The translations under genes were made by a program, and so were the position numbers. Below the pieces are notes generated by a model. It was not told the origin of the DNA. It ran no database searches and saw nothing but the letters and a program-made list of their open reading frames with translations. Shown in pieces: positions 5,138 through 63,538 of a stretch of DNA of 64,000 bases (position 1 is the first letter of the stretch; the number at the start of each line of letters is the position of its first letter). This stretch comes from a virus. The stretch is taken from the IMG/VR virus record IMGVR_UViG_3300035670_000170, positions 4,977-68,976 of that record. One strand, written 5' to 3'.

Positions 5138-5878
5138 TTAAACTTCAATTACTTCTTCAATGGGTGTGTAGCTGCGCTTATCACACAGTTTGTTGAACAG
5201 GCAGTCAGCACACACGTTACAGTCCTTCGTGGGTATAGGCTCAAACTTGTTAACCATGTAGTCACGCACTTGGTCAATGATACGGTAGTGGTTTTCCATC
5301 GCTTCACTGCTGATACGGGCGCGGATAAACTTTATCCACCCGCTTTTGCCGAACACCAGATAGTAAAACGGGCGCACCACCCCATCGCGCAGGTAAGAAC
5401 CAAGGGTATAGTGTACAGCCTGTGTATGGTCAAGTGCATCAGGGACGCCCCACCCATACTTACCCTTGTCGTCTTTACGTGATGCAGTGTACTTAATGTC
5501 AATGATAACACTACTACCTTCGTAATCAGCAATGCAGTCAAGGTGAAACACCAAGTCCCCTTCAATGATTTCCGGCTGTACCTCTGTCACCTTTATGCCC
5601 ATCTTTGGTAGTGTGTTTTGCTTGTGGTACTTCGCCTGTGATACGGCTTGTGCTGCCCATGCGTAGCTTCCTTCCCCACGCTGTTTCTTTGGCGGCTCGA
5701 TCGTCTGGTGTCCCCGTGCGGCACCTATTAGTTCCTGTTCAAAGAGTAGGCCGGAGTACATTGCCTCTGTTGGCTCCGACCGTAGGCCGTCGATGTACTT
5801 TAGCTTGAGCATATAACGGCATCCGTCACGGTCTTGTACGTCCTTTATTAGGGACTGACTTATTAGTAGTTTATTCAT
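5138..5878 (-). CDS. PD-(D/E)XK nuclease (Cas4/RecB-like exonuclease)
   Basis: SQS..K...C, LDCI...IIDIK, Q...Y, C-terminal CxxC..C.....C cluster. Confidence 0.8.
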   Translation of the reverse strand: MNKLLISQSLIKDVQDRDGCRYMLKLKYIDGLRSEPTEAMYSGLLFEQELIGAARGHQTIEPPKKQRGEGSYAWAAQAVSQAKYHKQNTLPKMGIKVTEVQPEIIEGDLVFHLDCIADYEGSSVIIDIKYTASRKDDKGKYGWGVPDALDHTQAVHYTLGSYLRDGVVRPFYYLVFGKSGWIKFIRARISSEAMENHYRIIDQVRDYMVNKFEPIPTKDCNVCADCLFNKLCDKRSYTPIEEVIEV

Positions 5879-6034: not shown

Positions 6035-6754
6035 TTAAAACAATTCATATTCTGTTTTTAATAATTTATCTGTAACAAAATCAAAACAACTTTTATCAAT
6101 ATCACCTGCAATGTAATTTCTGCCTTCTTTTTTTGCTGTTACAAGCATATTGCCACCACCCATAAAGGGGTCTATTATTAGCCCTCCTTTTGGAGAGAAG
6201 CATCTAATCAATATTTGACATAGTTCTATTGGCTTTGTTGGTATATTACCCCCATCTTCTCTTTTTCTTTCTATGTTTAATAAATCATTCAGCCAAATCC
6301 CTTCTTTGCTATTAAAAAATGGGTTTGATTTTTCTTTATATCCATCAAAAACTAAATACCCTTTATCTCCTTGTTTGGTATTTGGGCTATACGGCATACC
6401 CGTTCTCGGATTAAAAAAGAAACTTTTTCCGCAACACCAAAATATTTTATGATACGAGTATGTAGGCATTTTATTTGATACCCAGTTACCTGTTTTTATA
6501 TACTTCCATATTATCTCATTCCTAAAACAATAGTTTATTTGGTTTCTTAAATCGTAATCATACGGTTTCTTTGTAAACATTAGAATATTGCCAGTTTCTT
6601 TTAACACTCTAAAACATTCACTTACCAAGCCATCGGCAATAAGTTTTACCCAATCTTGATAATTTGGGTCTAAAAATATTAAGTCGGCAGAATTATCATC
6701 AACTCCTGCAAGTAGTTCAAAACAGTCTTTTTGGTATATTTTATTTAATTCCAT
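6035..6754 (-). CDS. DNA N6-adenine/N4-cytosine methyltransferase (beta class)
   Basis: DLIFLDPNY (motif IV-like), PTKP..L, DPFMGGG (motif I). Start moved to MELNKIY. Confidence 0.88.
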   Translation of the reverse strand: MELNKIYQKDCFELLAGVDDNSADLIFLDPNYQDWVKLIADGLVSECFRVLKETGNILMFTKKPYDYDLRNQINYCFRNEIIWKYIKTGNWVSNKMPTYSYHKIFWCCGKSFFFNPRTGMPYSPNTKQGDKGYLVFDGYKEKSNPFFNSKEGIWLNDLLNIERKREDGGNIPTKPIELCQILIRCFSPKGGLIIDPFMGGGNMLVTAKKEGRNYIAGDIDKSCFDFVTDKLLKTEYELF

Positions 6755-6800
6755 CGTTTTTTTCTTTTTGTTTTTCTGTTTTCGTTTTAAATTGTGCATC

Positions 6801-10574: not shown

Positions 10575-11792
10575 TTATCCCACGTCCTCGCCCTCGTATT
10601 CCTTTGTGAATTTTATCAGTCTGTTTTCAAGTTCTTGCATCCTTTCAAGCGTCGTGTACTGTTCCTGAATTAAAGGTTTCAACGTATCGCGGAAATTTAG
10701 AAACGACTGTCTCGGGCAGTCTGTGGGGTTATTGCAGATATACTCTATCAGACGCGTCCTCCACATCAGCGTATCAAAATTCGGAACAGCGCTAATTATC
10801 CGAATTTCTATCCTGTTTGAATGTATGCGGATGGCTTGGTATTTCGCATTGTCGTTTTTCAGGTCGGCATTGCTTTTCCCTTTACTGTAATCTTTGTTCA
10901 CTCGTCCAAAGTAAAGAGCATAAAATAGTGGCGTATATCCCTTCACCTTATCAAAAAACTCCATGCCAGAAAGTCCCGATTCGCTAACATTTATATGCCC
11001 TCCGCACCTTTCTGACTTGTCAGCGTTGATATGCCGCATCAGTGTTTTGTTGTCCTTTATTGTTTCGCGTATCTTGTCGGGCGCAAGTTCAAAAATGGGG
11101 CTAACGAGTTCAAATCCTGTATCACTGTCTAAACTTCCGTCCCTTTCTTTTATCCAATATGGGCACGTTTCGTTAAATTCACTAATCATCAGTGAATTTC
11201 TTACATCTTCATCCTCCTTCTCTATTTCGTAGCCAATAAAAAACTTGGGGTTTTCTGTAAATTTAACAACATGACCCCTTTCGCCATCGTGGTATCCAAT
11301 CACATACTCCTCCTCCGGTTCGTAGTGGTACTCTTGGTCGGACTCCCAGAAGTACGCGTTGTCAATATGTGTTATATCACCGTCATACATCACCACTAAA
11401 TCGTGATACTCCAGCGCATCGTCATCGTAATAATCGCCCCGATACTCATGTAATCCCGCATCACTAACCGCCGTTTCACTGTATATGGACTGTCCGCGGC
11501 CTACATACACATCTCGAAAATCGCTCGTATGTTCTTCGTGATATTCGCAGAACGCCACATCCTCAAGTAGGCGAACATCACCCTCTAACGTTATACAATA
11601 ACTATCATGCGAATAGGCCTGCCTATCGTGAAAAAATACTTCGTCATTCGCGCACTGTTCAGCCGTGCAGGTTTCATCCTTTATTCCGGCAATAATAGCG
11701 GGCAAATGGTTGCTATGCACGTTCACAATTTCGCGGGCCTGTTCTTTGTCGTCGCAAATTGTCAGCAGGTCTCTTAATTCCTTGGTTTTCAT
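10575..11792 (-). CDS. putative phage amidoligase (COOH-NH2 ligase)
   Basis: GYEIE, DGSLD..GFELVSP, CGGHIN, KY.A, IEIR, with an acidic Cys/His N-terminal region; next to the amidotransferase. Confidence 0.8.
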   Translation of the reverse strand: MKTKELRDLLTICDDKEQAREIVNVHSNHLPAIIAGIKDETCTAEQCANDEVFFHDRQAYSHDSYCITLEGDVRLLEDVAFCEYHEEHTSDFRDVYVGRGQSIYSETAVSDAGLHEYRGDYYDDDALEYHDLVVMYDGDITHIDNAYFWESDQEYHYEPEEEYVIGYHDGERGHVVKFTENPKFFIGYEIEKEDEDVRNSLMISEFNETCPYWIKERDGSLDSDTGFELVSPIFELAPDKIRETIKDNKTLMRHINADKSERCGGHINVSESGLSGMEFFDKVKGYTPLFYALYFGRVNKDYSKGKSNADLKNDNAKYQAIRIHSNRIEIRIISAVPNFDTLMWRTRLIEYICNNPTDCPRQSFLNFRDTLKPLIQEQYTTLERMQELENRLIKFTKEYEGEDVG

Positions 11793-46930: not shown

Positions 46931-48226
46931 ATGGCAGCACCAACATCAGTAGGCATAGGCACCGGTACAGCACAGGTTATTGACACAACCCCCGTAGCCG
47001 AAGCGTTTTTGCAATACGGTCAGGAAAAGGCAAAGAAAGCCGAACTTGCTAAGAAACAAGCGCAAAACGAATTACTTGCGCTTAAGGACAAGCAGGGGTG
47101 GGCTATCCGTGATGCACAGGAGTATCAGAACGCATACAACCAAATACTAAACAAGTACGAAGGTCAGTGGGAGCAGGTGTACAACGACCCAGCAAAGATG
47201 AATGAGTACCTTTCGGATATGGCTGCGTATAAGTCCCTTATTGATAATTCTAACGAACAGAAAGAATTGATGAAGGGTGTTACGCAGATATACAGTAACG
47301 AAAAGAACAAAGACCCAAACGAAAGATATTACTCGGACGAGCAGCTTGCTAAGTACGAAGATGTAATGACAAACCCTAAGTACCTGTACGATAGGGATGC
47401 TTTTCAGAAAGTTTATTTGGAACTGACCACTCCAACCATGAACCTAAAGAATCCGGTTCAGATGGTGTTGGAAGATATTGACGCCAAACCCCAAAACCAC
47501 TTAGTAACAACAGGGGGCGGCGGCTATAATGAGCAGGGAGGTTATTCTTACTCTTACGGAAACCAGAAAGTTGACTTGGTGAAGTGGGGCAACGCAGTTA
47601 GGAACAAGTATAAGAATGACCTTTTGTTTAAGGCGTCAGTTGACAAAAACTATGGGGACATTGATTCGTTTGTGGCTGAACTGCCAAACATTTATTCTAC
47701 TACCGATAGTTCGTTTTCCAAATCACCGCTTGGAGGTAAGGGCGCCGACGACCAGCTATATGTTGACGGCACCACTACTGAAGACTTTGAGTTGGAAACA
47801 TCAGCAGAAAGCGGGTTTAAGCCTTGGGAAACTGTAAAAACAACGTACAAAGCATACACGCTGCCGTCAACGCTTGAAACAACCATTTCACTTGGTTCAG
47901 ACGCCATTGACGCAACAACCGGAAGGAAGACGGATGAGTTCACGGGTCAAAATGACGTGGTGATAACAAAAGCCATGTTTAATCCAGCAAGCGGCGATTA
48001 TTCAGTGCTTGTAGCCACAACCAGCAAGACGCTTGTTAATGTTGGTGGCAAGGAGCAGGTGAAGGAAATTTCCAAAAATGCTATTGTACCATTCAAGCAG
48101 GTTGAAAACAAGCTGATTGCACAGTACGGTAAAGAACAGGTTGAGGAACTAAAGCGTAAGCTTAGGGAACTTCCGACAGGCGACGGTGGTTCAGGAACAT
48201 CAAGCACTAAGAAACCATTACCATAA
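46931..48226 (+). CDS. putative ejection/cargo protein
   Basis: 431-aa helical protein between the small and giant cargo genes. Confidence 0.5.
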   Translation: MAAPTSVGIGTGTAQVIDTTPVAEAFLQYGQEKAKKAELAKKQAQNELLALKDKQGWAIRDAQEYQNAYNQILNKYEGQWEQVYNDPAKMNEYLSDMAAYKSLIDNSNEQKELMKGVTQIYSNEKNKDPNERYYSDEQLAKYEDVMTNPKYLYDRDAFQKVYLELTTPTMNLKNPVQMVLEDIDAKPQNHLVTTGGGGYNEQGGYSYSYGNQKVDLVKWGNAVRNKYKNDLLFKASVDKNYGDIDSFVAELPNIYSTTDSSFSKSPLGGKGADDQLYVDGTTTEDFELETSAESGFKPWETVKTTYKAYTLPSTLETTISLGSDAIDATTGRKTDEFTGQNDVVITKAMFNPASGDYSVLVATTSKTLVNVGGKEQVKEISKNAIVPFKQVENKLIAQYGKEQVEELKRKLRELPTGDGGSGTSSTKKPLP

Positions 48227-51200
48227 TGAACGACAAGGCATTACAGGCACTATACAAAGACTTATCCGGCGAGTATGAAGTTGGCAGCTATGACGATTTT
48301 AAGTCATACATGGCTAACCCAACAAACCGGAAGAAACTGTATGATAATGTAATTGTCAAGCGCTACAACGTAAGCGACTACAACCAGTTTGAAAGCACTT
48401 ACGCCACAGCCCCCGCGCAGGGAGAGCCAGTAAAAAAAAAAGAATCTACCATTGGTGGAATCGCATCAGAAGCATCCGTTTCAGAAGCCCAATCTACTTC
48501 GCAGGGCGATGAATTGGCTGTTCAGGCTGAAGTAACCGATACCAAAACGGGCGCCCCAAAACAAGGCATCGGCGCATTAGCAGTAAGCGTAATACCCACC
48601 AAGGATGAGGTAGCCTACAAGACAATATCCTCACAGCGCCAAAAGGCAGTAGACAGGGACATTGACGCAAACGCCCAAGCCACAATAAGTGAGATAGCGT
48701 CGTCAATAAGCCCCGAAACAGAGGCGCAGATACAGACCGAGTACGAAAACTACAAGGCCACACTACCTATACCCCAAAAGCCAAAAGACTACAACCAGTA
48801 CCGCTTAGACTACATCAAGGACTATTACGGTATCAAGGACAGCAAGGGCATAGCAGACATTGACGCACGTTACAAGGCCAAGTCAGAGGCGGCAAAGCGC
48901 CAGCGTGAGTTAGACGAAGCCGTAAGTGTGTTCGCAAAGAAGTTTAGCGAGAGGCCGTCAAGCCCGATATACTCAAACCTACTAAACGCCACTAAGCTAA
49001 TTGAAAAGCCCAAAGAAGGCGACGACAAGGCAGAACCCGTGGACGTTAGCGGTAGGTTCAAGCGCAACATAGACACGCCAGCAGGCACCACGACCGTCGA
49101 CATACTAACGCAAGGCATTAGTAGCGTACCGGAGGGCGGCATACAGTTTTACGCCAACAACTCCCCGCGCAGGGTGTATGTAGGTGGCGTTGACAGCAAG
49201 CCCGAATCGTTTGCCGTGGATGAGTTGGGCAATAGAACCGACGAACCCGACAAGGTTAAGCAATCGTTAAGTCAGTTTACCCCCAATACGGCTGATGCGT
49301 TAACACCCGTTGACGACAACCAGTACGCCATATTCAAGAAGGTCATTGAGGACTACGCGACAGAGAACCCCGAAAAGGCTAAGCAAATCGGGCGCCCCCA
49401 AACTCTTTATTCACAATCATGGGACAGGGGTGACTACCGCCTAAAACAAGAATGGGACGTAGTAAAAGACGGTGCCTTTGTACGCGAAGCAATAAAGTAC
49501 CAAAAGGAGAAACTCGCCAACGAATACACCCAACGGGTAACACAGTTAGAAAAGCAGTTCGCACAAGACATCGCAGCACGCCCCGACAAACAGGCGGTGT
49601 ACGACAGCGACTTTGAAGTACAAAAGGCAAACTTAGCACTGCAATATAACAGCGCAGAGAAGTACCTTGACCTAATGTACAACGGGTATGTACGTGCCAA
49701 CATAAAGAACGCAGACCGCGTAGAAACAGAGATTGCATACCAACAGGCTGAACGCGACATCAAGGAGATTGAAGCCATGCGTGAGGCCGACAAGCAGTGG
49801 TACAACAAACAAAACGCCGTAGTGCAATTTGGTGTTGACGTGTGGGACGGTTTCGCCGACGCTGGTAAAGAGATTGTAAGGGGCGTAGAATCCCTTGGTT
49901 ACTTAGCCACGGGTACAGATATGCCCGATGAGCAGAAACGCTTTTACGTGCAATATGACGCCATGCGCGCAGGTAGCGACGAAAGCCTTGTGCGCGATGC
50001 CACGTCAATGATCGCACAGACAGCAGCTATCATGGCTCCCGCAGGGTGGATTGGGGGTACGCTAAAGACATTAGGTGTCGGTGCCAAGGTAGCGCAAACA
50101 ACTGGTATCGTTACAAGTAGCTATTTGCAAACGGCTGGTACATCGTACATAGACGCGATGGCGCAGGGTATGGACAGCGAAACGGCAATGGTGTACGGAA
50201 ACGTCATGGGGCTGTCACAGGGTTTTGTGGAGGCTATATTCCCGTCGGATTACCTGTTCGGGGGTGTACGCACACAGATGAAGAAGAACATTGTCAACAT
50301 CCTAAAGAACGCATCCCCAGCGGAGATACGTAGGATGACAAGTGGGCAGGTTATACGTTCGGCATTTAGTGAATTTGCCAACGAAACAAAGAAGGAAATG
50401 GTGGAGGAGGTTGCCGCATACCTGTCAGAGAAGGGTATCAACTTCACCATGAATCAGGTTACTGGCAAGGACATACTTGATGACGAAGTGACGATTAAGG
50501 ACATGGCTAATGCCGCTGGTGGTGCAGCTATTGTCGGAACTTTCTTTGGTGGTAGCCGCGTCATTAAGTCGTTTAAGAACAGCGCGGTGTTCCCTGTGCA
50601 GATGCAGTACGAATACTTAGCTGCGTCAGACCCCGACGGGGTGATGGAGAAGATAGAGTTTGCCAAGAAAGAGGGGGCGCTGACCGACGTTCAATACAAA
50701 AACGCTAAGGACAGGCTTAACAGTTTGGTGGAGCAGAAGAAAGCCGTTGATGCCGCGTCACCTGAAATGAGTGAGTTCAACAAGGCCGTGCTGGTGAATA
50801 TGCGTGCCGATAAGGACGAAGCCGTTAAGTACGCTAAGACGCTGGACGAAACAGACCCCGTTGATGCGCGTATCTTACAGACGATGAATGAGAAGATTGC
50901 CACCATCGACGCATTGCAGAACGACATCCTCAAAGGCGAAGATGCTGGTAAGGCTTACGCTAAGTACCTCAATGAATCAATGGGTATCATTTCCCGTGGT
51001 GTTGAGGAGGCGGGTACGCAGCAGCCACAAGCAGAGGTTATCCCTGACGGCGTTGTTGTTGAGGACATCCCTGACGAAGATGCGTTTAGTGTGTTTGGAT
51101 TTGAGCAGATGTCCGGTGAGCAGTTAGCGGATATTCAGGAGCAGATAGACCTACGCGAAAGTGGCTACGATGAGATGGCTGAAATAATAGCCAAGGAACT

Positions 51201-54200
51201 TGGGTTGCCAGAGGGTACGGTTGCCACCGTGGAGGACTTGGCGGCTGCATACTTAGAAGCACAGAACCCCGACGTACAAACACTTAGGGACGGACTACGG
51301 GGGCTACGCGTTAACCGTGACAGCTTTGTGCAGTTCGCTGACAAGAACTATATCACACAAGGGCTTGCCCGTGCGTGGTTCACCCGCAAGAAAGACAGGT
51401 CAGGTCGTGACCTTGACGAGATAGCACAGGAAATATCTGAAATGCGGGGACAAGAGGTAACACCACAGGACATTGTTGATATTATTGTTGAGAATCCAAA
51501 CGGGATACCGCAACGTTCTGAAAGGGCTGCCCGTATAAATGACCTGTACAAACAGAAAACAGGCAAGAACCTAAACACCAGTGTCGCAGCAAAGATACTG
51601 AACAAAAGGGGCGTTAAGGCCGTAAACAACGATATTGTAAAGGATGTCCTAAACATATTTGTAGGGCCATCAGGGAATATAAACACAGACGAACTAATAC
51701 GTGAAATAGAATCAGGCCCCGACTTCTTTATGGCGTGGCCTTACAGTCTAACAATGCAGGAATATGAAGAACTCAAAAAAGCAATCGCAGACCCAAAACG
51801 ACGAGAAGAAATACTTGGAGAAGCTACAAATTTTAAGAAAGACTATTCATGGGTTGAGGGATTTGACGAAGACTACGGAACCCAAGAAGAAGGAGGTATA
51901 GATGCCATTCAAGAGCAAGGCGCAACTGCGGTGGATGTACAAGAACAAGCCGCAGATGGCGAAAAGGTGGTCGAAGGAACACCCGAATCAGGACGTGAAG
52001 AAGCTGCCCAAGAAGGTCAGGAAGCGGTAAGTTTTGAAGCCGCCCGTGCAGTAGAACCACCCATCAAAGAGCGTGTTGAGCTTACGGGCACACGTGCAGA
52101 CCGGGTGGTGATAGATCGCATCAAAGAGGGCGCAAGCGAAAGCGCCAAAGCCCTGTTGGATAGGCTACCTAATGTTATGAAGGCGTTAAGGCGTTCAGGT
52201 GTTAACGTGCGTATAGTGCTACACCCATCGGCAGAATCGTTTAATGGCGTTGACGGTGAAACAGTTTCTATGCGTACTGGCAACGCTAAGATACTGCCTG
52301 ACGGCACCATCCACATTGATATGTCAAGTGCCACCACCACAGCAGGTAGCCTTGTGCATGAGGCCGTACACCAAGTTATATCTGACGTCATCGCCGCCGA
52401 CCCTATCAGGTTAGCAAAGATGGCTAACGACCTACGTGACACACTGAAAAAGGCTATGCCTGACGTGCATGAGGACTTGGAGGAATTTACCCAGCAGTAT
52501 GAGCCACAGGAGCGTGATGAGGAGTACGTCGCTGAATTTATGGCGATGGTGGCTGACGGGTACGTAGATATTGACAAGCTATCACCGCCAAAGAGGAAGT
52601 CTGTCTTAGAATGGTTTAACCGTTTGTTAAACGCTTTTGGCTTTGATTCCGTGAAGATTACAGATACCATGTCAGCTATTGACGTGGCGGCTGCGATCAA
52701 TAGGGCATTGGAGGAAGGTGTTAGGATAAAGTCAAAGGTGTCGAAAGCAAATCGGGCGCCCCAAACACGCCAGCAGAAGTTCTTAGACCGTATGAACGCA
52801 AGCCGTGATTCAAAGGGTCTACCACGTTGGGGCGAAAAGAAGCAGAAGTCATTAGAGCAGCAAGCCAAGGAAATGGCTGACGACCTAATAAAGGACTTCC
52901 CAGACGAAGAAACAAAGAAGATGTACGACTTTGCGTACAGCTACCACCTACGTCAGTTACAGGCACAGAACAAGCCTAAGTACCAGCGTGTACAAAGAAT
53001 ATCACCGGAGTTCAGAAAGGGATTGATAAAGCTATCCAAGCAGTACATAGAGAACGGTACACCCAAAGACCAGATAATAGAGGGGCTAAAGGAACAGGGA
53101 ATATTGTCATCACAGGCTAACGCTATTTACACAGAGGCAAAGAACCAAACCCTCAACGACATATCCCAAACAGACCCCATCGTAAAGGATGCTGTTAAGC
53201 AGCTTGAAAGCGGCATTAAGATAAGTGAGGTATCACAAAATGTGATAGCAGCACTGCCGGACAACAAAAAGGCACTGTCGGCGTTCTACGTGGCGGCGGC
53301 AATGAACAGGTACCTGTCACGCCCTAACGACTTTAAGGCTACCATCGACAAGAAGGTCGCTGAAATAAAGCAAAAGGCTAAAGATAAAGCCGAATTAAAG
53401 GGGGATAAAGACAAGGCGGCTAAAGAGATCAAGAAAGCCAAAGCAGCTATCAAAAGGGCTATGCGTGGCAAATCGGGCGACAAAAGGCTATTCGCCCGTG
53501 ACAAGACAACGCTAAAGACATTTGTGGGTATAAACCACAACCAACTATCAGACGAATCAAAGGCTGAATACCTTGCCGTATTAGCATCAGTGGCATCGTC
53601 AGTATCACCTGTTAAAGTATCAAACATAGAGGATGAATACATAGCACAGAACGCCCGTAGGGAATACACCAACGACGATATAGATGCGCTGAACGAAAAG
53701 TATTTGGCAGAGGTGGATAGCGAGAAGCGCCGCAGACTGCTTGACAAAGTGGCGTCATTCTACTCACAGATGGATATGGCGTTACCGGAGGAGTTTGGGT
53801 CAATGACAGTATCCGACCTTCAGGCATTAGCCGCCAACATCCTATCGGAAGAACAGCTACCTGATGTTGACAAGGAACAGGAACAGCAGCTAAAGCGTCA
53901 GGCACTACTTGAACTGGCGGCTGAATACGTTGCCGAAGCAGTGGCGGCTATGGACAGCGGGGTGATAGACACTGAATCAATGACCCCGTTGGAGAAGCGT
54001 ATCATTGACGGTATTTCAAACGGTAGCGTGGATGCCCTGTCGCTGAACGAGATAAAGACGTTGATAAAGGGGATGGATAACTTCGTTACCAACGGCAGCT
54101 TAGACGGCATGGGTAAGATTGCAGCACGCATGGAAGCCCCCGCCATCGTTAAGCAGTTCTTGGCGGAAAAGGTGAAGATGTGCGTGAAGTTCGGGAACTT

Positions 54201-56580
54201 GGATTTCTTTACCCGCTTTGCTGGCAGCATGGAGCAATACGTGGAAAGCGTCGCTGGCAGTAGCCGCCTTGGGGCTAAGTTCTATGCCATGAGTGGCATG
54301 GCACAGGTGTACGCTGGCGGTAGCCGTGCCGACAAGCGCATGGTTGACGGGTTCCTAAACCCATTAGGGGAACTGTACAAGAAATACCCAGATACCAAGA
54401 CACCCGAATCCATCATGGCGCGATTCATATACGGGTTTATGAATCAGAACTATGGCGGCACAGCCGATGAGGTAGCCGCAGAGTTTGAGCGCAGGAAAGG
54501 GTTGTTAGTGTCAGACATTGAGGCAAAGAAAAAGTCAAAGCGTAAAGACCTACGTGAGCAAGCGGAGCTGGAACAGCGGATGTTCGATATGCTTGTGGCT
54601 GACGCGTCGACAATAAAGGACGTTGTTTCTGCCATGACAAAGAACGGTCACACAGGCGCCCGTGAGATTGTTGACTTAGCCGTGTCGTTTGCCAGCACAT
54701 ACGCTAATGAGTACGACGAGATTAGTAGGGTTTACAATAACAACACCCTTGACCTTGTAAACAACTACTTGCCCAATAAGACAAAGAAAACAGCTATTAT
54801 CAGGGACGAAGACCTTGGCATAGATCAAGACATCAACTCTGTTGACCCATCGGTAATGACACCCAGTTCGACAAAGAACAGGTTTAAGTCCATGAAGCGC
54901 TTAGAGGGTAGCCGTGTTTACGACGTGGACTTCGACGCTATGGTTACTAATGAGTTCCGTCATGCCTTAACCTACATTGAAACCCTACCACACATCATGC
55001 GCTTTAAGGCCGTGATGAACACCAATGATTTGATTGAGGAGATGGGCGAGAAGAACGTTAAGTTCTTAGACCTGAAGATGACTAATGGTGTTAAGATTCT
55101 ACGGCGTATGTACCCCAGCGATGAGTATGCCCGTGCGCTGTCAAAGGCGACGTCGGGGTTAGCGTCGTTGGGTGCCAACATAAGCCTTGCGGGTATCACC
55201 CAGCCCATGAAACAGGTGTTACCTGTTGCGTTCAGGGCGATGACGGCGGCAGCAGTAAGAAAGAAGGGCGCAGCGGCGGCACTACACACAACCCTTAGCG
55301 GTGCTAACTACAACGAAGGGCTGTTCTCTAAAGGGACTATCCTAAGCCGCAAGGAAACACGCGGTGGCTATCAGTTTGAGCGCTTAGAGGATTCTGTTGT
55401 CAAAGCCCAACGCGGCGTCCTGTCGAAAGCCTTTGGTAAGTACCTGTCGGCGCGTCGTAAGGCAGCAGACCTAACGATGTACCCATTAACACAGTCGGAT
55501 TACTTTGCTGCGCGTAAGGCGTGGGTGTCGTACTATGCAGAGAATCTACTTCAAAGGGGCGTGTATAAAAGCTGGCGCGACATTGACTGGCAAAAGGAAT
55601 CAGCAGACCCAAATGAAGAAGCGTCGGCGTATGCAGAGATAATGCTGTCACGTTCACAGAACGTCAATACTATGGCGGCGGCGTCGGAAATGATGACGCG
55701 TACAGGTGGATATAAGGACATTTGGCGAAATATCTTTTTCCCCTTTGCGTCGTTCACGATGAATAACAACGTCACCCGTTGGATAAACTTTAAGCGGTTG
55801 CTGTGGGGCAGTCCGACAGAAAAGGCTATTGCCTTTGGGGACATCACCGCACAGGGGGTGGAGGCACTGGCGTTTAACAGCATTAAGCTGTTGTTGATAT
55901 ACCCACTTAGGATATACCTTGTCAAGGAAGTTCTAAAGGCTATGTTCGACTATGACGATGAGGAGGTGGATGCTATCGTGTCGTCAAATGAACTACCGCA
56001 CCGTGTACACCAAGTCATTGCCCAGTCTACCATTGATATGACCTTCGGGGGCTTCTCATCGCAGTCTGACATGGCAGTGAAGTATGCCGTTAACGACTAT
56101 TACAAGAATGTGCTACTGCCGTTCTTTGACGTGGACACAGACAAGGATTTGTTCTATCAGGGTAACATGAGTAGCGATGAGATCAGTACGTTCTTGTCGT
56201 CTATTGGTTCTTACGGTATATTGGCGCAGCAGTTGTTGGACATAGCTGATGTTGCTGAAAGCACGATGTTTGGCTTTAGTGATACTATCATGCTTGACCC
56301 AAACCCGTTTGATGCAAGCACGGAAAAGGTGGAGTACAAGATGACCGAAGACCAGCAGCGGGCGTTACAGATGTATTTGATATTCCACGGAGTCACGATG
56401 TTGACGGGCTTAAACGACGTTGACGCACGGACTATTGTGAATAAAATTCAGAAGGGGGTAGAGCGTGATATTAAGAGGGGTGGTAAAACGGGCGGGTCAA
56501 ACAGTGGCACGTTAGAGGCCAAGCCGATGTCAGGGCGTTCGTTAAGCACCCAAAGCCTGTCGTCAAGGCGTCTAAGATAG
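48226..56580 (+). CDS. giant virion cargo/polyvalent protein with zincin-like motif
   Basis: 2784 aa; LVHEAVH...EEYVAE at about 52351-52540; Gly/Ala hydrophobic segments. Confidence 0.65.
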   Translation: MNDKALQALYKDLSGEYEVGSYDDFKSYMANPTNRKKLYDNVIVKRYNVSDYNQFESTYATAPAQGEPVKKKESTIGGIASEASVSEAQSTSQGDELAVQAEVTDTKTGAPKQGIGALAVSVIPTKDEVAYKTISSQRQKAVDRDIDANAQATISEIASSISPETEAQIQTEYENYKATLPIPQKPKDYNQYRLDYIKDYYGIKDSKGIADIDARYKAKSEAAKRQRELDEAVSVFAKKFSERPSSPIYSNLLNATKLIEKPKEGDDKAEPVDVSGRFKRNIDTPAGTTTVDILTQGISSVPEGGIQFYANNSPRRVYVGGVDSKPESFAVDELGNRTDEPDKVKQSLSQFTPNTADALTPVDDNQYAIFKKVIEDYATENPEKAKQIGRPQTLYSQSWDRGDYRLKQEWDVVKDGAFVREAIKYQKEKLANEYTQRVTQLEKQFAQDIAARPDKQAVYDSDFEVQKANLALQYNSAEKYLDLMYNGYVRANIKNADRVETEIAYQQAERDIKEIEAMREADKQWYNKQNAVVQFGVDVWDGFADAGKEIVRGVESLGYLATGTDMPDEQKRFYVQYDAMRAGSDESLVRDATSMIAQTAAIMAPAGWIGGTLKTLGVGAKVAQTTGIVTSSYLQTAGTSYIDAMAQGMDSETAMVYGNVMGLSQGFVEAIFPSDYLFGGVRTQMKKNIVNILKNASPAEIRRMTSGQVIRSAFSEFANETKKEMVEEVAAYLSEKGINFTMNQVTGKDILDDEVTIKDMANAAGGAAIVGTFFGGSRVIKSFKNSAVFPVQMQYEYLAASDPDGVMEKIEFAKKEGALTDVQYKNAKDRLNSLVEQKKAVDAASPEMSEFNKAVLVNMRADKDEAVKYAKTLDETDPVDARILQTMNEKIATIDALQNDILKGEDAGKAYAKYLNESMGIISRGVEEAGTQQPQAEVIPDGVVVEDIPDEDAFSVFGFEQMSGEQLADIQEQIDLRESGYDEMAEIIAKELGLPEGTVATVEDLAAAYLEAQNPDVQTLRDGLRGLRVNRDSFVQFADKNYITQGLARAWFTRKKDRSGRDLDEIAQEISEMRGQEVTPQDIVDIIVENPNGIPQRSERAARINDLYKQKTGKNLNTSVAAKILNKRGVKAVNNDIVKDVLNIFVGPSGNINTDELIREIESGPDFFMAWPYSLTMQEYEELKKAIADPKRREEILGEATNFKKDYSWVEGFDEDYGTQEEGGIDAIQEQGATAVDVQEQAADGEKVVEGTPESGREEAAQEGQEAVSFEAARAVEPPIKERVELTGTRADRVVIDRIKEGASESAKALLDRLPNVMKALRRSGVNVRIVLHPSAESFNGVDGETVSMRTGNAKILPDGTIHIDMSSATTTAGSLVHEAVHQVISDVIAADPIRLAKMANDLRDTLKKAMPDVHEDLEEFTQQYEPQERDEEYVAEFMAMVADGYVDIDKLSPPKRKSVLEWFNRLLNAFGFDSVKITDTMSAIDVAAAINRALEEGVRIKSKVSKANRAPQTRQQKFLDRMNASRDSKGLPRWGEKKQKSLEQQAKEMADDLIKDFPDEETKKMYDFAYSYHLRQLQAQNKPKYQRVQRISPEFRKGLIKLSKQYIENGTPKDQIIEGLKEQGILSSQANAIYTEAKNQTLNDISQTDPIVKDAVKQLESGIKISEVSQNVIAALPDNKKALSAFYVAAAMNRYLSRPNDFKATIDKKVAEIKQKAKDKAELKGDKDKAAKEIKKAKAAIKRAMRGKSGDKRLFARDKTTLKTFVGINHNQLSDESKAEYLAVLASVASSVSPVKVSNIEDEYIAQNARREYTNDDIDALNEKYLAEVDSEKRRRLLDKVASFYSQMDMALPEEFGSMTVSDLQALAANILSEEQLPDVDKEQEQQLKRQALLELAAEYVAEAVAAMDSGVIDTESMTPLEKRIIDGISNGSVDALSLNEIKTLIKGMDNFVTNGSLDGMGKIAARMEAPAIVKQFLAEKVKMCVKFGNLDFFTRFAGSMEQYVESVAGSSRLGAKFYAMSGMAQVYAGGSRADKRMVDGFLNPLGELYKKYPDTKTPESIMARFIYGFMNQNYGGTADEVAAEFERRKGLLVSDIEAKKKSKRKDLREQAELEQRMFDMLVADASTIKDVVSAMTKNGHTGAREIVDLAVSFASTYANEYDEISRVYNNNTLDLVNNYLPNKTKKTAIIRDEDLGIDQDINSVDPSVMTPSSTKNRFKSMKRLEGSRVYDVDFDAMVTNEFRHALTYIETLPHIMRFKAVMNTNDLIEEMGEKNVKFLDLKMTNGVKILRRMYPSDEYARALSKATSGLASLGANISLAGITQPMKQVLPVAFRAMTAAAVRKKGAAAALHTTLSGANYNEGLFSKGTILSRKETRGGYQFERLEDSVVKAQRGVLSKAFGKYLSARRKAADLTMYPLTQSDYFAARKAWVSYYAENLLQRGVYKSWRDIDWQKESADPNEEASAYAEIMLSRSQNVNTMAAASEMMTRTGGYKDIWRNIFFPFASFTMNNNVTRWINFKRLLWGSPTEKAIAFGDITAQGVEALAFNSIKLLLIYPLRIYLVKEVLKAMFDYDDEEVDAIVSSNELPHRVHQVIAQSTIDMTFGGFSSQSDMAVKYAVNDYYKNVLLPFFDVDTDKDLFYQGNMSSDEISTFLSSIGSYGILAQQLLDIADVAESTMFGFSDTIMLDPNPFDASTEKVEYKMTEDQQRALQMYLIFHGVTMLTGLNDVDARTIVNKIQKGVERDIKRGGKTGGSNSGTLEAKPMSGRSLSTQSLSSRRLR

Positions 56581-61129: not shown

Positions 61130-61393
61130 TCAATCACGCCAAGTAACGTGCATTGCTTCGAGTTTATCTCCGAGTATTGGCGAACCATAGTTTTCAAACT
61201 TCATTTTAATTGAAGGATGAACTTCTAATCCGTTTGGGCATTGTATCATAAATGGTAACTTTCGTTTATCTTCACTAATCTGTAATGCTTCTAAAATGAA
61301 GTCATTCAAGGATTTTGGAGAAGAAGAACTACGGCTAACATTGTATAAATGAACATTGCCAGCTTCATCGGTTATTTGAACTTTGTATTCCAT
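61130..61393 (-). CDS. cassette hypothetical protein (paralog of 3793..4059)
   Basis: 87 aa, MEYKVQITDE...WRD. Confidence 0.85.
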   Translation of the reverse strand: MEYKVQITDEAGNVHLYNVSRSSSSPKSLNDFILEALQISEDKRKLPFMIQCPNGLEVHPSIKMKFENYGSPILGDKLEAMHVTWRD

Positions 61394-61463
61394 ATCAAGT
61401 TTATTTTTAAGTTTAACATTTGTGTTTTAAAATGGCAACGTCATTTATACCTTGCCGTTATAC
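61333..61463 (+). other. attC-like hairpin D1
   Basis: GGCTAAC; GTATAAATGAACATTGCCA...TGGCAACGTCATTTATAC; CTTGCC; GTTATAC. Confidence 0.8.
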
Positions 61464-61472
61464 GCAAATAAA

Positions 61473-61802
61473 CTAAACCCCACCCGCATTATTTTCGTTG
61501 TTCTTTTTAGCACTTTCAATAAGCGTGTTCATTCCCGCACTTAGTTGTTCAAATGTTTGAAGTTGTGAAACCAACAATTGAAGGTCTCCTATCATTGCAT
61601 TTACGCCTTCCAATGAAGTGAAAATTCTAAACTCTCCAAGTTCGTGTCCCTTCAAAATTTCGCCTTTTTTATTCACTTCATATTTTGGTTCAGTACTTAG
61701 TAGTATCAATTCAACTTGTGGTTTCAAATTATTGGTTTCATAGTTGATTGAAAAATTTGTGTTACTTCTAAATGTAACTAAGTGTTTTTTTGTTGTTGCC
61801 AT
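61473..61802 (-). CDS. cassette hypothetical protein
   Basis: 109 aa, between GTTATACGCAAATAAACTAAAC and GTTTAGTTTATCAGCGTATAAC. Confidence 0.75.
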   Translation of the reverse strand: MATTKKHLVTFRSNTNFSINYETNNLKPQVELILLSTEPKYEVNKKGEILKGHELGEFRIFTSLEGVNAMIGDLQLLVSQLQTFEQLSAGMNTLIESAKKNNENNAGGV

Positions 61803-61870
61803 TTTTTTGTGTTTTATTTAATTATTATTATTTAGTTTCTAATTGCCAACGCTTCGTTTAGTTTATCAGC

Positions 61871-61925
61871 GTATAACAGCAAATAATCAACATTAAAACG
61901 ATTGCCTACCTGCAAACCGTTAGGC
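61871..61925 (+). other. attC-like hairpin D2 (degenerate)
   Basis: GTATAAC-AGCAAATAATCAACATTAAAACGATTGCCTACCTGC-AAACC-GTTAGGC, related to hairpin B2. Confidence 0.7.
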
Positions 61926-62004
61926 AACATTAAAACGAGCCAACGCACAGACAAACGCACTTGCCTAACAGCGTATAAACTCAATTTAAAATTAACCCAA
62001 CGCA

Positions 62005-62235
62005 CTATTCACAGTATTCATCACACCACGGATGATGACCATGATAGCATCCGCAGTCATCACAACATTCGTGGCTATCGTCATAGTCAGGGTCTTCTTC
62101 GTCTGGTGCATTTCCAAAAGCATCACAAATGCAAGTAGTATTTCGGCAATTTTCACAAAACAATCCAACTCTTTTCATTGATTCAACAGCATTATTAACA
62201 GATGCTATCTCATCTTTTGTTAATCCATTTTCCAT
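62005..62235 (-). CDS. Cys/Asp-rich small protein
   Basis: 76 aa with multiple CxxC/CxC. Confidence 0.7.
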   Translation of the reverse strand: MENGLTKDEIASVNNAVESMKRVGLFCENCRNTTCICDAFGNAPDEEDPDYDDSHECCDDCGCYHGHHPWCDEYCE

Positions 62236-62247
62236 TTTAATCTATAT

Positions 62248-62430
62248 TTATTTTACCATTTTTCTGATGTCAGGAGAATGGTTGTTCAACCAGTATTTTG
62301 CAATCGAATATCGTTCCTCTTTTGTTTTAGTATTCATCGCTATTCCTTTATTGTCTCGGTACTTTGCAAAGTGCATTTCCTCTAATGAAGTCATTTCAAC
62401 TCCGTAAACCATTTTATTTTTTGCCATCAC
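62248..62430 (-). CDS. hypothetical protein
   Basis: 60 aa, starts right after the hairpin arm. Confidence 0.6.
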   Translation of the reverse strand: MMAKNKMVYGVEMTSLEEMHFAKYRDNKGIAMNTKTKEERYSIAKYWLNNHSPDIRKMVK

Positions 62431-62478
62431 TATTTAATTTTAAACTAAGTTTATACGCATACCGTTATCGGAAATATT

Positions 62479-62703
62479 TTAATTTCCAACGCACACACCT
62501 TCACCTTTTACAGATTGATTAACAAGTATATTACCTCTTGAACTTAATTGAATGTCACGCAAATTGATTGGAATTTCAATTGTATCATATCCAATATTCA
62601 CATCAGATATATCATGGTTTAAGTCTTGATAAGACATTAAGGCAACCAATTTGCCGTTTTTCGTTGAGATATTAATAATCTCCATGTTAGTTAAATTTTT
62701 CAT
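62479..62703 (-). CDS. cassette hypothetical protein
   Basis: 74 aa, between GTTATCGGAAATATTTT and AAAATACTATCCGATAAC. Confidence 0.65.
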   Translation of the reverse strand: MKNLTNMEIINISTKNGKLVALMSYQDLNHDISDVNIGYDTIEIPINLRDIQLSSRGNILVNQSVKGEGVCVGN

Positions 62704-62751
62704 TCTATTTATATTTATTTGTTAATAATTCCTACGCTCTAAAATACTATC

Positions 62752-62816
62752 CGATAACAGCATCTTGGCGAAAATACGTACATATCCAAGGTTCGCCAAG
62801 TTGCGTTCCGTTATAC
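62752..62816 (+). other. attC-like hairpin D4
   Basis: CGATAAC; GCATCTTGGCGAA...TTCGCCAAGTTGC; GTTCC; GTTATAC. Confidence 0.8.
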
Positions 62817-62826
62817 GCAATTTGTT

Positions 62827-63384
62827 TTAATTTTTTTTTCCCTCCCCTCCAAGAGTTATAGAGTTTTCGCATTCATTACCCCAAGCATCCCATCCTAAAA
62901 CATTCTGCCTTGCAAATAATTCTACTTTATTTTGAGTTGGAAACATTGCTTCTATTCTTGCTCTTATTTCGTTTGGTTTAGCAGAATGTTTACCTCTCAT
63001 TTTAGATAAAAATTGCCTTACATTCCTTGCGCCTCTCGGAGTTGGTATTGTGCCACGCTTTCCTACCAAGCAAATTTCACATTCACTCATTGTATAATGT
63101 CCTGGATTTGTTCTTTGCTTGTGCCATATAAAAGCTATTGTGGCATATTTGAAGCCCCAACTTTCCATCACTTCAATACCTTATTTTAACATCGGGCTTA
63201 CAACCCACAAAAACAGCATACAATTTTTATCTGAAATACTTTGCACTTCTAATGCTTTTAAGTCTTTCAATGTCATTGTACTATAATGTGTATTCAATTC
63301 TCCATTAAGTATTGATGTTTTAGCCAAACATTCCTTTGTGTTGTATTCCCAAGCTGGATCAGCGTATATTATTTCGTATTTCAT
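62827..63384 (-). pseudogene. MT-A70 family adenine methyltransferase with an in-frame TAA
   Basis: IIYADPAW, LFLWV, WGFKY.T..F.W.K, E.CL.G..G, HSAKP, ELFAR, GWD.WGNE. The two ORFs are in the same frame, split by TAA at 63181-63183 (MLK*GIEVMESWG). Confidence 0.85.
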
Positions 63385-63441
63385 ATTTTAGTTATTAAGT
63401 TTAAAAGTTTTCCAACCGCACAAAAAATTAAAACAAACAGC

Positions 63442-63496
63442 GTATAACAGCAGCTATGCGCCATTAAAACGAGCGCATAGCTGCGGCACGTTAGGT
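63442..63496 (+). other. attC-like hairpin D5
   Basis: GTATAAC-A-GCAGCTATGCGC-CATTAAAACGA-GCGCATAGCTGC-GGCAC-GTTAGGT, perfect 12-bp stem. Confidence 0.85.
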
Positions 63497-63538
63497 GCAA
63501 TTTATTTGAATGTCTTATCATACCTTATCGGGTATAAG

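What the first reader, a model, noticed from the sequence alone, without database searches (positions are those of the whole stretch)
61919..62470. Inside-out cassette: a 51-bp geneless body whose hairpin loop carries two whole genes
Seen: the cassette GTTAGGCAA...TTGCCTAAC (61919-61969) has no ORF. Its hairpin arms (25 bp, 2 mismatches) are about 440 bp apart and enclose ORFs 62005..62235 and 62248..62430. Established: canonical attC sites are roughly 60-140 bp with non-coding loops. Inference: cargo can ride in the loop of the recombination site. This extends the trend seen in A1, B3 and D1 and hints at how new cassettes form.
Basis: partly seen in the sequence, partly recalled or inferred. 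Interest (0 to 1): 0.78.

Follow-up and report, generated by a model that had tools for sequence, protein, structure and literature searches.

The report
Phage gene cassette carried inside a hairpin
Two small phage genes sit between the arms of a 25-bp hairpin that belongs to a widespread, apparently undescribed family of hairpin-bounded gene cassettes in phages of Bacteroidota-like hosts, and the same arms carry other genes in other phages.

Summary
Arms 61971-61995 and 62434-62458 pair at 23/25 across 438 nt holding ORFs 62005..62235 and 62248..62430. They follow a 51-bp unit closed by a perfect 9-bp inverted repeat.

The window is a complete 69-kb phage genome with no tyrosine recombinase, so this is not a classical integron. 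It carries arrays with a fixed grammar: GTTAxxxxx-(loop 1)-xxxxxTAAC-A-[GC stem-(loop 2)-stem GC]-N5-GTTA. This site family occurs in at least 118 viral contigs.

Usually the gene lies in loop 1 and an 11-nt motif (CATTAAAACGA) in loop 2. Here they are swapped. The swap recurs:
- 8 of 8 motif-bearing tiny units are followed by a cargo-bearing hairpin.
- The same 25-nt arms carry at least three different cargos in metagenome contigs.
- Three arm alleles keep pairing through changes on both sides.

The neighbouring cassette (61457-61922) recurs in other phages with homology ending exactly at the GTTA boxes.

Best reading: a recurrent "carrier hairpin" variant of a mobile, attC-like cassette system. 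The recombination mechanism and enzyme are not shown. An RNA-level role with exchange by homologous recombination remains a serious rival.

The parts
61457..61922 (-). Neighbouring ordinary cassette: GTTATACGC - ORF109 (61473..61802) - GCGTATAAC - A - degenerate hairpin (61879-61913, loop CATTAAAACGA) - AAACC - GTTA
   Evidence: The block recurs with unlike flanks. Homology ends at 61455 (L153, L154) and 61922 (L155). X7 contig record 25 covers 61457-61922 and X5 record 18 covers 61455-61886.
61919..61969 (+). Tiny first stem-loop ('S1'): GTTAGGCAA (61919-61927), a 33-nt loop beginning with the family loop motif CATTAAAACGA (61928-61938), then TTGCCTAAC (61961-61969)
   Evidence: The stem is present in the MFE and centroid folds.
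61970..61970 (+). 1-nt linker (A) between the TAAC box and the hairpin stem, as in the other sites of the family
61971..61995 (+). Left arm of the carrier hairpin ('S2'): outer stem GCGTATAAAC, internal TCAAT, inner stem TTAAAATTAA
   Evidence: The identical arm is found in 7 metagenome contigs.
61996..62433 (-). 438-nt loop carrying the two cargo genes; conserved inner end CCCAACGCAC next to the left arm
62005..62235 (-). Cargo gene ORF76: small Cys/His-rich protein of a family with an invariant C-terminal DDSxECCxxCGCYHGHxPWC block
   Evidence: No Pfam family. There are 6 relatives besides itself; invariant columns.
62248..62430 (-). Cargo gene ORF60; its ATG (62427) lies a few nt from the right arm
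   Evidence: No Pfam family. One relative, L150, 71% identity over residues 7-48, lying outside any hairpin context.
62434..62458 (+). Right arm of the carrier hairpin: TTAATTTTAA, ACTAA, GTTTATACGC
62459..62472 (+). 5-nt spacer ATACC, then GTTATCGGA, the first box of the next cassette (ORF74); it is complementary to TCCGATAAC at 62750-62758
   Evidence: (I12)
62755..62813 (+). Ordinary hairpin site closing the ORF74 cassette
62810..63493 (-). Next cassette: split MT-A70 methyltransferase (62827..63171, 63181..63384). It is bracketed by GTTATACGC/GCGTATAAC, extended to a 25-nt inverted repeat with at most 2 mismatches, and followed by the minimal hairpin site 63445-63493.

Best explanation
The locus is a real and recurrent 'carrier hairpin' variant of a widespread hairpin-bounded gene-cassette system of phages. 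Every unit is made of two successive stem-loops. The first stem, S1, is private to the unit and runs GTTAxxxxx...xxxxxTAAC. The second, S2, is a GC...GC stem. A 1-nt linker joins them and a 5-nt spacer follows. As a circle the two stems would stack into one bulged rod with a loop at each end. Either loop can hold cargo. In most units the gene lies in the S1 loop and the S2 loop holds an 11-nt motif or the gene's 5' end. Here, and in about a dozen other units, the S1 loop holds only a short sequence, the family motif in 8 of them. In these units the whole gene(s) lie between the S2 arms.

Shown: the grammar, its recurrence, reassortment of modules between phages with homology ending at the GTTA/TAAC boxes, and arm alleles that keep pairing while their sequence differs.

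Inferred: the stems are sites of structure-guided recombination at their bases, by analogy with attC, catalysed by an unknown enzyme that is not a phage tyrosine recombinase. It is also inferred that the strand that folds is the gene-sense strand.
For: Grammar and spread:
- Sites of the form TAAC-A-GC stem...stem GC-N5-GTTA occur in three arrays of this genome.
- In 147 of 153 sites the 12-nt arms pair at 10 to 12 positions.
- Sites never lie on both strands of a locus (0 of 151).

Cassette signature:
- The box after site i is complementary to the box before site i+1 at 5 or 6 of 6 variable positions in 24 of 83 consecutive pairs. The figure is 185 of 4976 for random pairs and 7 of 230 within one hairpin.
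- The parse found 342 S1-then-S2 units, 282 of them distinct on the site strand.

The swap recurs:
- 8 of 8 tiny units with the motif are followed by 'A' plus an arm whose partner lies 85-464 nt downstream, before a spacer (5 nt; in 2 only after a 1-nt register shift) and GTTA (7 cases) or GTTG (1 case).
- All 9 distinct units with an S1 loop of 60 nt or less have an S2 loop of 80 nt or more, against 108 of 273 other units (Fisher p = 3e-4).

Same arms, other cargo:
- L160, L162 and L156 carry one ORF of about 80 aa. L161 carries another of about 47 aa. Flanking boxes differ between contigs.
- Carrier alleles in L142 and L153/L154 keep the TCAAT/ACTAA internal loop while their outer and inner stems differ in sequence and still pair.

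Mobility of the neighbouring cassette with exact ends is shown.

Strand asymmetry: at stem positions 11-25 of 175 long hairpins there are 352 A.C against 124 G.T on the site strand (p = 2e-26). Position 14 is A.C in 123 of 175. These are G.T or G.U wobbles on the gene-sense strand.
Against: - No recombinase was found. PF00589 and PF01797 are absent from this complete genome, and 20 further ORFs scanned show only replication and repair genes. Only 7 of 32 other array-bearing viral records have a tyrosine recombinase, 2 of 12 among those at least 90% complete.
- No circle or empty-site junction for 61920-62464 was seen. The four runs laid were contigs with no cover over 61940-62443.
- Our own cargo was not found in another context. 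ORF76 and ORF74 have no relatives in viral contigs, and the arms gave 0 hits in viral contigs.
- S1 and S2 reassort independently, which a strict one-crossover-site cassette model does not predict.
- Six of 153 minimal hairpins pair at 9 or fewer of 12 arm positions; several of them, by eye, join arms of two different alleles. This is what recombination inside the conserved loop would give.
- Start codons lie inside S2 loops (64 of 93), which points to a role in expression.
- In the within-genome control for private repeats, the largest of 100 Markov shuffles equalled the observed 11 (mean 3.0).
Confidence: 0.5

Rival explanations
1. RNA-level element. The stems fold in the polycistronic early transcript as processing, stabilising or insulating stems around each cistron, like RNase III stalks around rRNAs or the sites between T7 early genes. 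Modules are shuffled between phages by ordinary or relaxed homologous recombination in the conserved hairpins, as proposed for T4-type PeSL cassettes. On this view the 25-bp stem around ORF60-ORF76 is simply a long processing stalk.
For: - The conserved non-Watson-Crick positions of the inner stem are wobbles only on the gene-sense strand. The two 'mismatches' of the 25-nt arms are such positions.
- Start codons lie in 64 of 93 S2 loops of 80-100 nt.
- The first cargo ATG lies 4-6 nt from the arm in all carriers with these arms.
- Cargo of about 90 nt with T-arm-like motifs is bracketed by stems that extend an acceptor-like helix.
- No recombinase was found.
- Six of 153 minimal hairpins have poorly pairing arms, several made of halves of two alleles.
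- The phage encodes a PD-(D/E)XK nuclease.
- PeSL precedent: abstract of PMC2839356.
Against: - It does not explain why each gene is bracketed by its own inverted repeat starting exactly with GTTA and ending with TAAC, with fixed 1-nt and 5-nt linkers.
- Position 5 of the stem is G.T on the site strand in 58 of 175 hairpins, which is A.C on the gene-sense strand.
- Sigma-70-like promoters are not enriched (13 against 10.9 +/- 4.1), and no terminator-like site coincides with an S2 hairpin.
- The contexts flanking the shared ORF109 cassette share only a few bases of homology.
Confidence: 0.3
2. A true integron-type array lacking its own integrase (CALIN-like) that has landed in phage genomes and is recombined by a host IntI.
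For: - The private box complementarity is the classical cassette signature.
- The AAC/GTT triplets are conserved.
- The hairpin carries a conserved unpaired feature (C.C or T.G at stem positions 4-5).
Against: - Spacers are 1 nt and 5 nt instead of 5-6 nt on each arm, and the minimal site of 49 nt is below the attC range of 57-141 bp (passages of PMC5027507).
- R' often breaks GTTRRRY, for example GTTATAC and GTTATCG.
- The strand asymmetry of the inner stem is on the gene-sense strand, whereas attC folds on the strand opposite the cassette ORF.
- Sites are rare in bacterial genomes: 1-7 matches in each of the 5 genomes searched.
- The family is mainly viral.
Confidence: 0.07
3. A small transposon-like element with terminal inverted repeats, carrying the two ORFs, inserted into the tip of an ordinary GCGTATAAAAAA-type hairpin.
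For: The outer 9 nt of the arms equal the commonest minimal stem allele. The inner 16 nt look like terminal inverted repeats.
Against: - The nnAAT / ACTnn internal loop plus inner stem is the general architecture of long hairpins in the family.
- It recurs with different inner-stem sequences in L142 and L153.
- Cargo changes while the full 25-nt arms stay the same.
- No transposase is present.
Confidence: 0.05

Closest known systems
Integron gene cassettes and attC sites (including CALINs)
   Same: - Tandem, co-oriented small gene units are separated by imperfect hairpins with conserved AAC...GTT cores.
- The first bases of each unit are complementary to the box before its hairpin, as expected if units circularise.
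- The hairpin's terminal part is variable in length.
- The stem carries a conserved unpaired feature.
   Different: - There is no integron integrase, and most carrier phages have no tyrosine recombinase at all.
- Spacer geometry is 1 nt and 5 nt, against 5-6 nt on each arm in attC.
- The minimal site is 49 nt.
- Loop 2 often holds a start codon or, as here, whole genes. The natural attC variable terminal structure is given as 3-100 nt (passage of PMC7439510) and attC length as 57-141 bp (passage of PMC5027507).
- The strand asymmetry of the inner stem favours the gene-sense strand.
- The elements live in phage replication modules.
PeSL (promoter-early stem-loop) regulatory cassettes of T4-type phages
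   Same: Both are short conserved stem-loop elements between small non-essential ORFs in plastic regions of phage genomes. In both, module shuffling is associated with the elements. Mini-circles are reported for PeSLs (abstract of PMC2839356).
   Different: - PeSLs are defined by a strong sigma-70 promoter plus a terminator, neither of which is detectable here.
- PeSLs are not described in that abstract as having private inverted repeats around each gene or genes inside the stem-loop. Only the abstract and outline were read.
RNase III processing stalks around rRNAs and between T7 early genes (recalled knowledge, no call)
   Same: A long stem is formed by inverted repeats that bracket a whole gene or operon. 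Wobble pairs appear on the transcribed strand.
   Different: Those stalks are not modular, are not associated with GTTA/TAAC boxes, and do not reassort between genomes. No cleavage data exist here.
IS200/IS605-type elements and their palindrome-associated derivatives (recalled knowledge)
   Same: Hairpins in one orientation flank the cargo, and short specific tetranucleotides lie next to the hairpins.
   Different: No Y1 transposase is present. No private inverted repeats are expected in that family.

Membership tests
Integron cassette / attC | Core boxes RYYYAAC (R'') and GTTRRRY (R') with conserved AAC/GTT | tested here: inconclusive
   For this unit R'' is GCCTAAC, which fits. R' is GTTATCG, which does not fit RRRY. 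Across the array, GTTAGGC and GTTAGGT fit while GTTATAC and GTTATCG do not. TAAC and GTTA are invariant only because the searches required them.
Integron cassette / attC | The start of a cassette is complementary to the inverse core of its own site (circular-cassette signature) | tested here: met
   9/9 for 61919/61961, 61457/61869, 62464/62750, 62810/63440 and 4126/4334; 10/10 for 6890/7064. Across loci, 24 of 83 consecutive pairs against 185 of 4976 random pairs.
Integron cassette / attC | Unpaired central spacer of 5-6 nt on each arm, L box, extrahelical bases | tested here: not met
   The linkers are 1 nt (A) and 5 nt. Instead there is a conserved C.C or T.G at stem positions 4-5. The attC definition is taken from passages of PMC5027507.
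Integron cassette / attC | Site length 57-141 bp with a non-coding variable terminal structure | tested here: not met
   This site spans 61961-62472 and its 438-nt loop holds two ORFs. The family minimum is 49 nt. In 64 of 93 loops of 80-100 nt there is a start codon.
Integron cassette / attC | Integron integrase (IntI) adjacent, or at least present | tested here: not met
   PF00589 gives 0 matches in the complete genome at E <= 1. It is present in 7 of 32 other carrier records.
Integron cassette / attC | Recognised by the IntegronFinder attC covariance model | not testable with these tools
   The model is not available here. Rfam gave no match in the window.
Integron cassette / attC | Excision as a circle and integration at G|TT | not testable with these tools
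   Only assembled contigs could be laid, and none covered 61940-62443.
PeSL regulatory cassette | Strong sigma-70-like promoter in each element | tested here: not met
   There are 13 promoter-like sites against 10.9 +/- 4.1 in shuffles. Only one good match was found (TTGGCA-17-AATAAT before ORF109), and it lies outside the hairpin. Bacteroidota-type promoters are not covered by the scan.
PeSL regulatory cassette | Stem-loop acting as an intrinsic terminator | tested here: not met
   No terminator-like site coincides with an S2 hairpin on the gene strand.
PeSL regulatory cassette | Lies between small accessory ORFs in plastic regions and marks the exchange boundaries between related phages | tested here: met
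IS200/IS605-type element | Y1 (HUH) transposase | tested here: not met
   PF01797 gives 0 matches in the genome.
This phage hairpin-cassette family (defined here) | xxxxxTAAC - 1 nt - stem ... stem - 5 nt - GTTAxxxxx, co-oriented with the neighbouring sites, with the preceding box complementary to the start of its own unit | tested here: met
   TTGCCTAAC-A-GCGTATAAAC...GTTTATACGC-ATACC-GTTATCGGA. It has the long-form architecture TCAAT/ACTAA plus an inner stem.

The most novel reading that the evidence does not exclude
Phages of Bacteroidota-like hosts carry an undescribed, integrase-independent, structure-guided gene-cassette system. Its recombination site is a bulged two-stem rod with a loop at each end, and either loop can carry cargo: whole genes, gene 5' ends or tRNA-like RNAs. 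The 'inside-out' unit at 61919-62470 would then be the form that shows cargo is not confined to the conventional cassette body. It would be a natural counterpart of embedding attC sites in functional sequence, and a possible route by which genes become cassettes.
Probability: 0.35. Interest if true: 0.9.

Novelty: new variant of a known kind. Interest (0 to 1): 0.72.

Why it matters
If the stems are recombination sites, this is a second natural system of structure-defined gene cassettes beside integrons. It sits in virulent-type phage genomes and works without an integron integrase. It would also relax a rule taken for granted for attC, that the hairpin tip is short and non-coding.

That bears on an open question in integron biology, namely how a gene acquires its recombination site. 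It would also give a handle on how phages exchange small early and accessory genes such as methyltransferases and Cys-rich proteins.

If the stems act in RNA instead, the family is a widespread modular system of mRNA architecture in Bacteroidota phages. Either way the grammar gives a simple sequence rule for delimiting accessory-gene modules in thousands of uncultured phage genomes. I found no description of it in print. The motif search returned only unrelated papers, and three keyword searches found nothing on it. These were full-text searches of the held library only.

Tried and rejected
- No Rfam family matched in the window. There was no blastn match of 60500-64000 in the phage collection.
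- ARAGORN found no tRNA in the window and none in the ~90-nt cargo loops of L038, L051, L067, L121 and L148. Rfam gave only a 17-nt tmRNA T-arm match there (E = 0.045). My first guess of 'tRNA cargo' is withdrawn in favour of 'T-arm-like'.
- Read laying gave no contig cover over 61940-62443 in X2, X3, X5 or X7, which says nothing. The joint 61121->61872 and the loose end 'TGCGTAATAAG' behind 61922 in X2/X3 are cross-mapping of the paralogous array at window 6869-7130 (6 differences in 51 nt). They are not a variant.
- ORF76 and ORF74 have no relatives in viral contigs. The arm pattern gave 0 hits in viral contigs.
- The L150 relative of ORF60 lies in no hairpin context.
- PDB sequence searches of the 405-aa and 365-aa unknown proteins gave nothing. 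Atlas leads, amidoligase-like and Metallophos/exonuclease-like, are not recombinases.
- No protein of this phage is a common neighbour of the arrays. The best were DnaB in 13 loci and an N6/N4 methylase in 12 loci, of about 160 loci.
- The G.T versus A.C count in the outer 10 bp of S2 is uninformative (46 against 44).
- The S1 stem-length measure was dropped, because counting A.C and G.T as pairs makes chance extension too large.
- A 10-12-nt inverted repeat inside ORF76 (62042/62199) is at chance level by my estimate and has the wrong topology for a site.
- Chance origin of the arms is rejected.
Full report
**1. What the window is**

The window is bases 4977-68976 of a 68,976-bp virus record with a 103-bp terminal direct repeat, rated 100% complete. 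Plus-strand genes fill 12-60 kb. The finding lies in the minus-strand block, which wraps round the genome end. This block holds replication genes:
- DnaB helicase at 2317..3693
- a PD-(D/E)XK nuclease at 5138..5878
- an N6/N4 methylase at 6035..6799
- a DnaA-C-like protein in L151

GC content falls to 0.36 in the region of the finding.

**2. The observation**

It is correct in every coordinate.
- Arms 61971-61995 and 62434-62458 pair at 23 of 25 positions with 438 nt between them.
- The loop holds ORFs 62005..62235 (76 aa) and 62248..62430 (60 aa) on the minus strand.
- The preceding 51 bp is closed by the perfect repeat GTTAGGCAA/TTGCCTAAC.
- Inverted repeats of this quality occur twice in the genome, both in this array. 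None occurred in 300 shuffles of the region or in 30 shuffles of the genome.
- Folded as ssDNA, both stems appear in the MFE and centroid structures. The total energy is unremarkable (z = -0.68).
- The loop contains no further boxes with arms. There is only a 72% internal echo of the right arm before ORF76 (D1).

Both cargo ORFs look like real genes.
- ORF76 belongs to a small family with an invariant C-terminal Cys/His block.
- ORF60 has a 71%-identical relative.
- Neither has a Pfam family.

**3. The grammar around it**

I call the plus strand the "site strand"; the genes are antisense to it. On this strand the region reads as a chain of units. Each unit is:

GTTAxxxxx - loop 1 - xxxxxTAAC - A - [stem - loop 2 - stem] - 5 nt - GTTA...

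The 9-10-nt boxes are private to each unit and perfectly complementary:
- 61457/61869
- 61919/61961
- 62464/62750
- 62810/63440
- 4126/4334
- 6890/7064

Within the genome, 11 such pairs were found against 3.0 +/- 1.9 in Markov shuffles, though the largest of 100 shuffles also reached 11. The statistical weight therefore comes from the wider data in section 4.

Three arrays exist, at windows 3780-4430, 6890-7120 and 61118-63493. They begin after a shared flank, AAATACGCCACAAGCCCCCA.

**4. The family**

*Spread.* The minimal hairpin is TAAC-A-GC-N10-CATTAAAACGA-N10-GC-N5-GTTA.
- It occurs in 31 genome contigs, mostly Bacteroidota or Flavobacteri* MAGs.
- In 147 of 153 sites the unspecified arms pair at 10-12 of 12 positions. 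Six pair at 9 or fewer, and several of these, by eye, join arms of two different alleles.
- Sites never occupy both strands of a locus (0 of 151).

*Private boxes.* The private-box rule holds beyond this genome. In 24 of 83 consecutive site pairs the boxes are complementary at 5 or more of 6 variable positions. The figure is 185 of 4976 for random pairs and 7 of 230 for the two boxes of one hairpin.

*Unit parse.* A parser found 342 S1-then-S2 units. For the later counts I dropped:
- 26 units on the non-site strand
- 34 duplicates
- all units of loci fetched, including L153/L154, because the strand table predates them

That left 282 distinct units.

| S2 loop length (nt between 10-mer arms) | units |
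|---|---|
| 15 | 104 |
| 16-79 | 61 |
| 80-100 | 96 |
| 101-199 | 5 |
| 200 or more (several doubtful) | 16 |

*Coding loops.* In 64 of 93 units with loops of 80-100 nt, an ATG inside the S2 loop opens a frame that runs through the arm and box into loop 1. The figure is 16 of 104 for minimal loops. ORF88 of this window is an example. Its start codon (4057-4059) lies between arms 4007-4016 and 4111-4120. Hairpin loops in this family are therefore often coding.

**5. The inside-out layout is a class, not a one-off**

Tiny units of the form GTTAxxxxx-CATTAAAACGA(-like)-xxxxxTAAC occur 8 times in the sequences held:
- this window
- L038
- L051
- L067
- L070
- L121
- L142
- L148

All 8 are followed by "A" plus an arm whose partner lies 85-464 nt downstream, before a 5-nt spacer and GTTA. 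That is 7 cases, two of which need a 1-nt register shift. The eighth has GTTG.

All 9 distinct units with loop 1 of 60 nt or less have loop 2 of 80 nt or more, against 108 of 273 others (p = 3e-4).

Cargo falls into two kinds:
- structured non-coding pieces of 85-103 nt, three of them with T-arm-like motifs that ARAGORN and Rfam do not call tRNA
- small ORFs of 56-87 aa, in L142, L153/L154, L047 (two units) and L070

**6. Same arms, other contents**

The 25-nt arm pattern is present in 7 metagenome contigs and in 0 viral contigs.
- L160, L162 and L156 carry one ORF of about 80 aa between the same arms, with loops of 262-263 nt in L160 and L162 (L156 not measured).
- L161 carries a different ORF of about 47 aa.
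- L157-L159 hold a rearranged remnant.

The boxes outside the arms differ between contigs. The unit before the arms is tiny in L160, L161 and L162, each with a different tiny unit, and is gene-bearing in L156. The inner ends are conserved: SCCWACRCAC follows the left arm, and the first ATG lies 4-6 nt from the right arm.

Carrier alleles in L142 and L153 keep the TCAAT/ACTAA internal loop. Their outer and inner stems differ in sequence but still pair:

| Carrier | Outer stem | Inner stem |
|---|---|---|
| this window | GCGTATAAAC / GTTTATACGC | TTAAAATTAA / TTAATTTTAA |
| L142 | GCAAATAAGC / GCCTATTTGC | TAATTAAATTG / CAATTTAATTA |
| L153 | GCAAATAGGC / GCCTATTTGC | TTTTAGGC / GCCTAAAA |

Pairing is therefore maintained around gene-sized loops.

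One finding goes against strict block inheritance. L153's tiny unit is nearly the same as L160's, while their arms and cargo differ.

**7. Evidence that modules move**

The neighbouring ORF109 cassette is shared with other phages, and homology stops at the boxes:
- at 61455 in L153 and L154 (99% identity)
- at 61922 in L155 (93% identity), after which L155 continues with another unit

Contigs from two other studies also carry it:
- X7 record 25 covers exactly 61457-61922, with unlike sequence on both sides.
- X5 record 18 covers 61455-61886.

In L153 the unit before this cassette is itself a carrier hairpin.

For the inside-out unit of this window, no second context was found.

**8. Which strand folds**

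In 175 distinct long hairpins, stem positions 11-25 show 352 A.C against 124 G.T on the site strand (p = 2e-26). Position 14 is A.C in 123 of 175. These read as G.T or G.U wobbles on the gene-sense strand.

The two "mismatches" of the 25-nt arms are exactly such positions. On the gene-sense strand the stem is therefore continuous.

Positions 4-5 behave differently. They are C.C in 40 hairpins and T.G on the site strand in 58, which looks like a deliberate unpaired feature. This asymmetry fits folding of the mRNA or of the gene-sense DNA strand. It is the opposite of attC, which folds on the strand opposite its cassette ORF.

**9. Enzyme**

- No tyrosine recombinase or Y1 transposase is encoded in this genome.
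- Only 7 of 32 other carrier records have a tyrosine recombinase, 2 of 12 among near-complete ones.
- Sites are sparse in five bacterial genomes: 1-7 matches each.
- No protein of this phage is a regular neighbour of the arrays.

The catalyst, if there is one, is unknown.

**10. Reading**

I take the unit to be a genuine member of a modular two-stem cassette family in which cargo may occupy either loop. Relative to the asymmetric A/N5 junction, the gene and the family loop motif have changed places.

Whether the stems are recombination sites (attC-like) or RNA stems whose modules are shuffled by homologous recombination (PeSL-like; abstract of PMC2839356) is open. I put the first slightly ahead. 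The private GTTA...TAAC repeats, the fixed linkers and the box-exact boundaries are what a structure-guided crossover predicts, and the RNA model does not explain them. The strand asymmetry, the start codons in the loops and the missing enzyme keep the second model alive. The two are not exclusive.

**11. Comparison and novelty**

Against attC as defined in passages of PMC5027507 and PMC7439510, the family shares the cassette signature and the hairpin. It fails on spacer geometry, length, non-coding tip, integrase and strand. It should not be filed as an integron.

I found no description of the motif or grammar in the library searched. One paper that mentions attC-like matches in phages reports only isolated weak matches in Acinetobacter phages (passage of PMC13676570).

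Noticed in passing
window 62827..63171 and 63181..63384 (-): An MT-A70 adenine methyltransferase is split into two ORFs (profile positions 1-52 and 64-172) inside one cassette. Its private repeat extends to about 25-28 nt (62810/63424).
   Followed up: partly
window 3780-4129 and 61118-61460: Paralogous 88- and 87-aa genes each start inside an S2 loop and read through the arm and box into loop 1. The arms differ between the paralogues (ACGTATTGCT/AGCAATACGC against TTGTATAAAT/ATTTATACCT) yet still pair, 10/10 and 8/10 by eye.
   Followed up: partly
window 3759, 6869, 61100; 4441, 7412: All three arrays begin after the same flank, AAATACGCCACAAGCCCCCA. Two arrays end before GTTACCAAATCGGGCG, next to paralogous 218- and 176-aa genes. 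These could be array entry or anchor sequences.
   Followed up: no
L067 (- 7955 on), L121 (+450 on), L148 (- 5917 on): Cargo of about 90-100 nt inside carrier hairpins carries T-arm-like GGGTTCGACTCCC motifs, and the arms extend an acceptor-like stem. ARAGORN and Rfam do not call these tRNA.
   Followed up: partly
L013, L029, L062, L071, L101; window 61873-61922: Some minimal hairpins have a left arm of one allele and a right arm of another around the conserved 11-nt loop. This is the pattern expected from recombination inside the loop.
   Followed up: partly
L157-L159 (about 4640-4820 in L157): A rearranged remnant: the left carrier arm is preceded by part of the usual cargo gene in the opposite orientation and followed by an inverted copy of a tiny unit. 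This suggests inversion between the arms.
   Followed up: no
L151:3818-4915 (-) and window 10575..11792 (-): Two large proteins with no Pfam family. Atlas leads are Metallophos / DNA-repair-exonuclease-like (365 aa) and amidoligase-like (405 aa). These are leads only.
   Followed up: partly
window 48226..56580 (+): A single 2784-aa ORF lies in the structural module. It was not examined.
   Followed up: no
window 61846, 61940, 61997, 62486 and the loops of tiny units in L023, L162: A recurring CCAACGC(A/T)C motif (CGTTGG on the gene strand) lies at the gene-distal inner end of loops and upstream of genes. Twice it sits 17 nt before an A/T-rich hexamer, so it may be a promoter element. The sigma-70 scan shows no enrichment.
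   Followed up: partly
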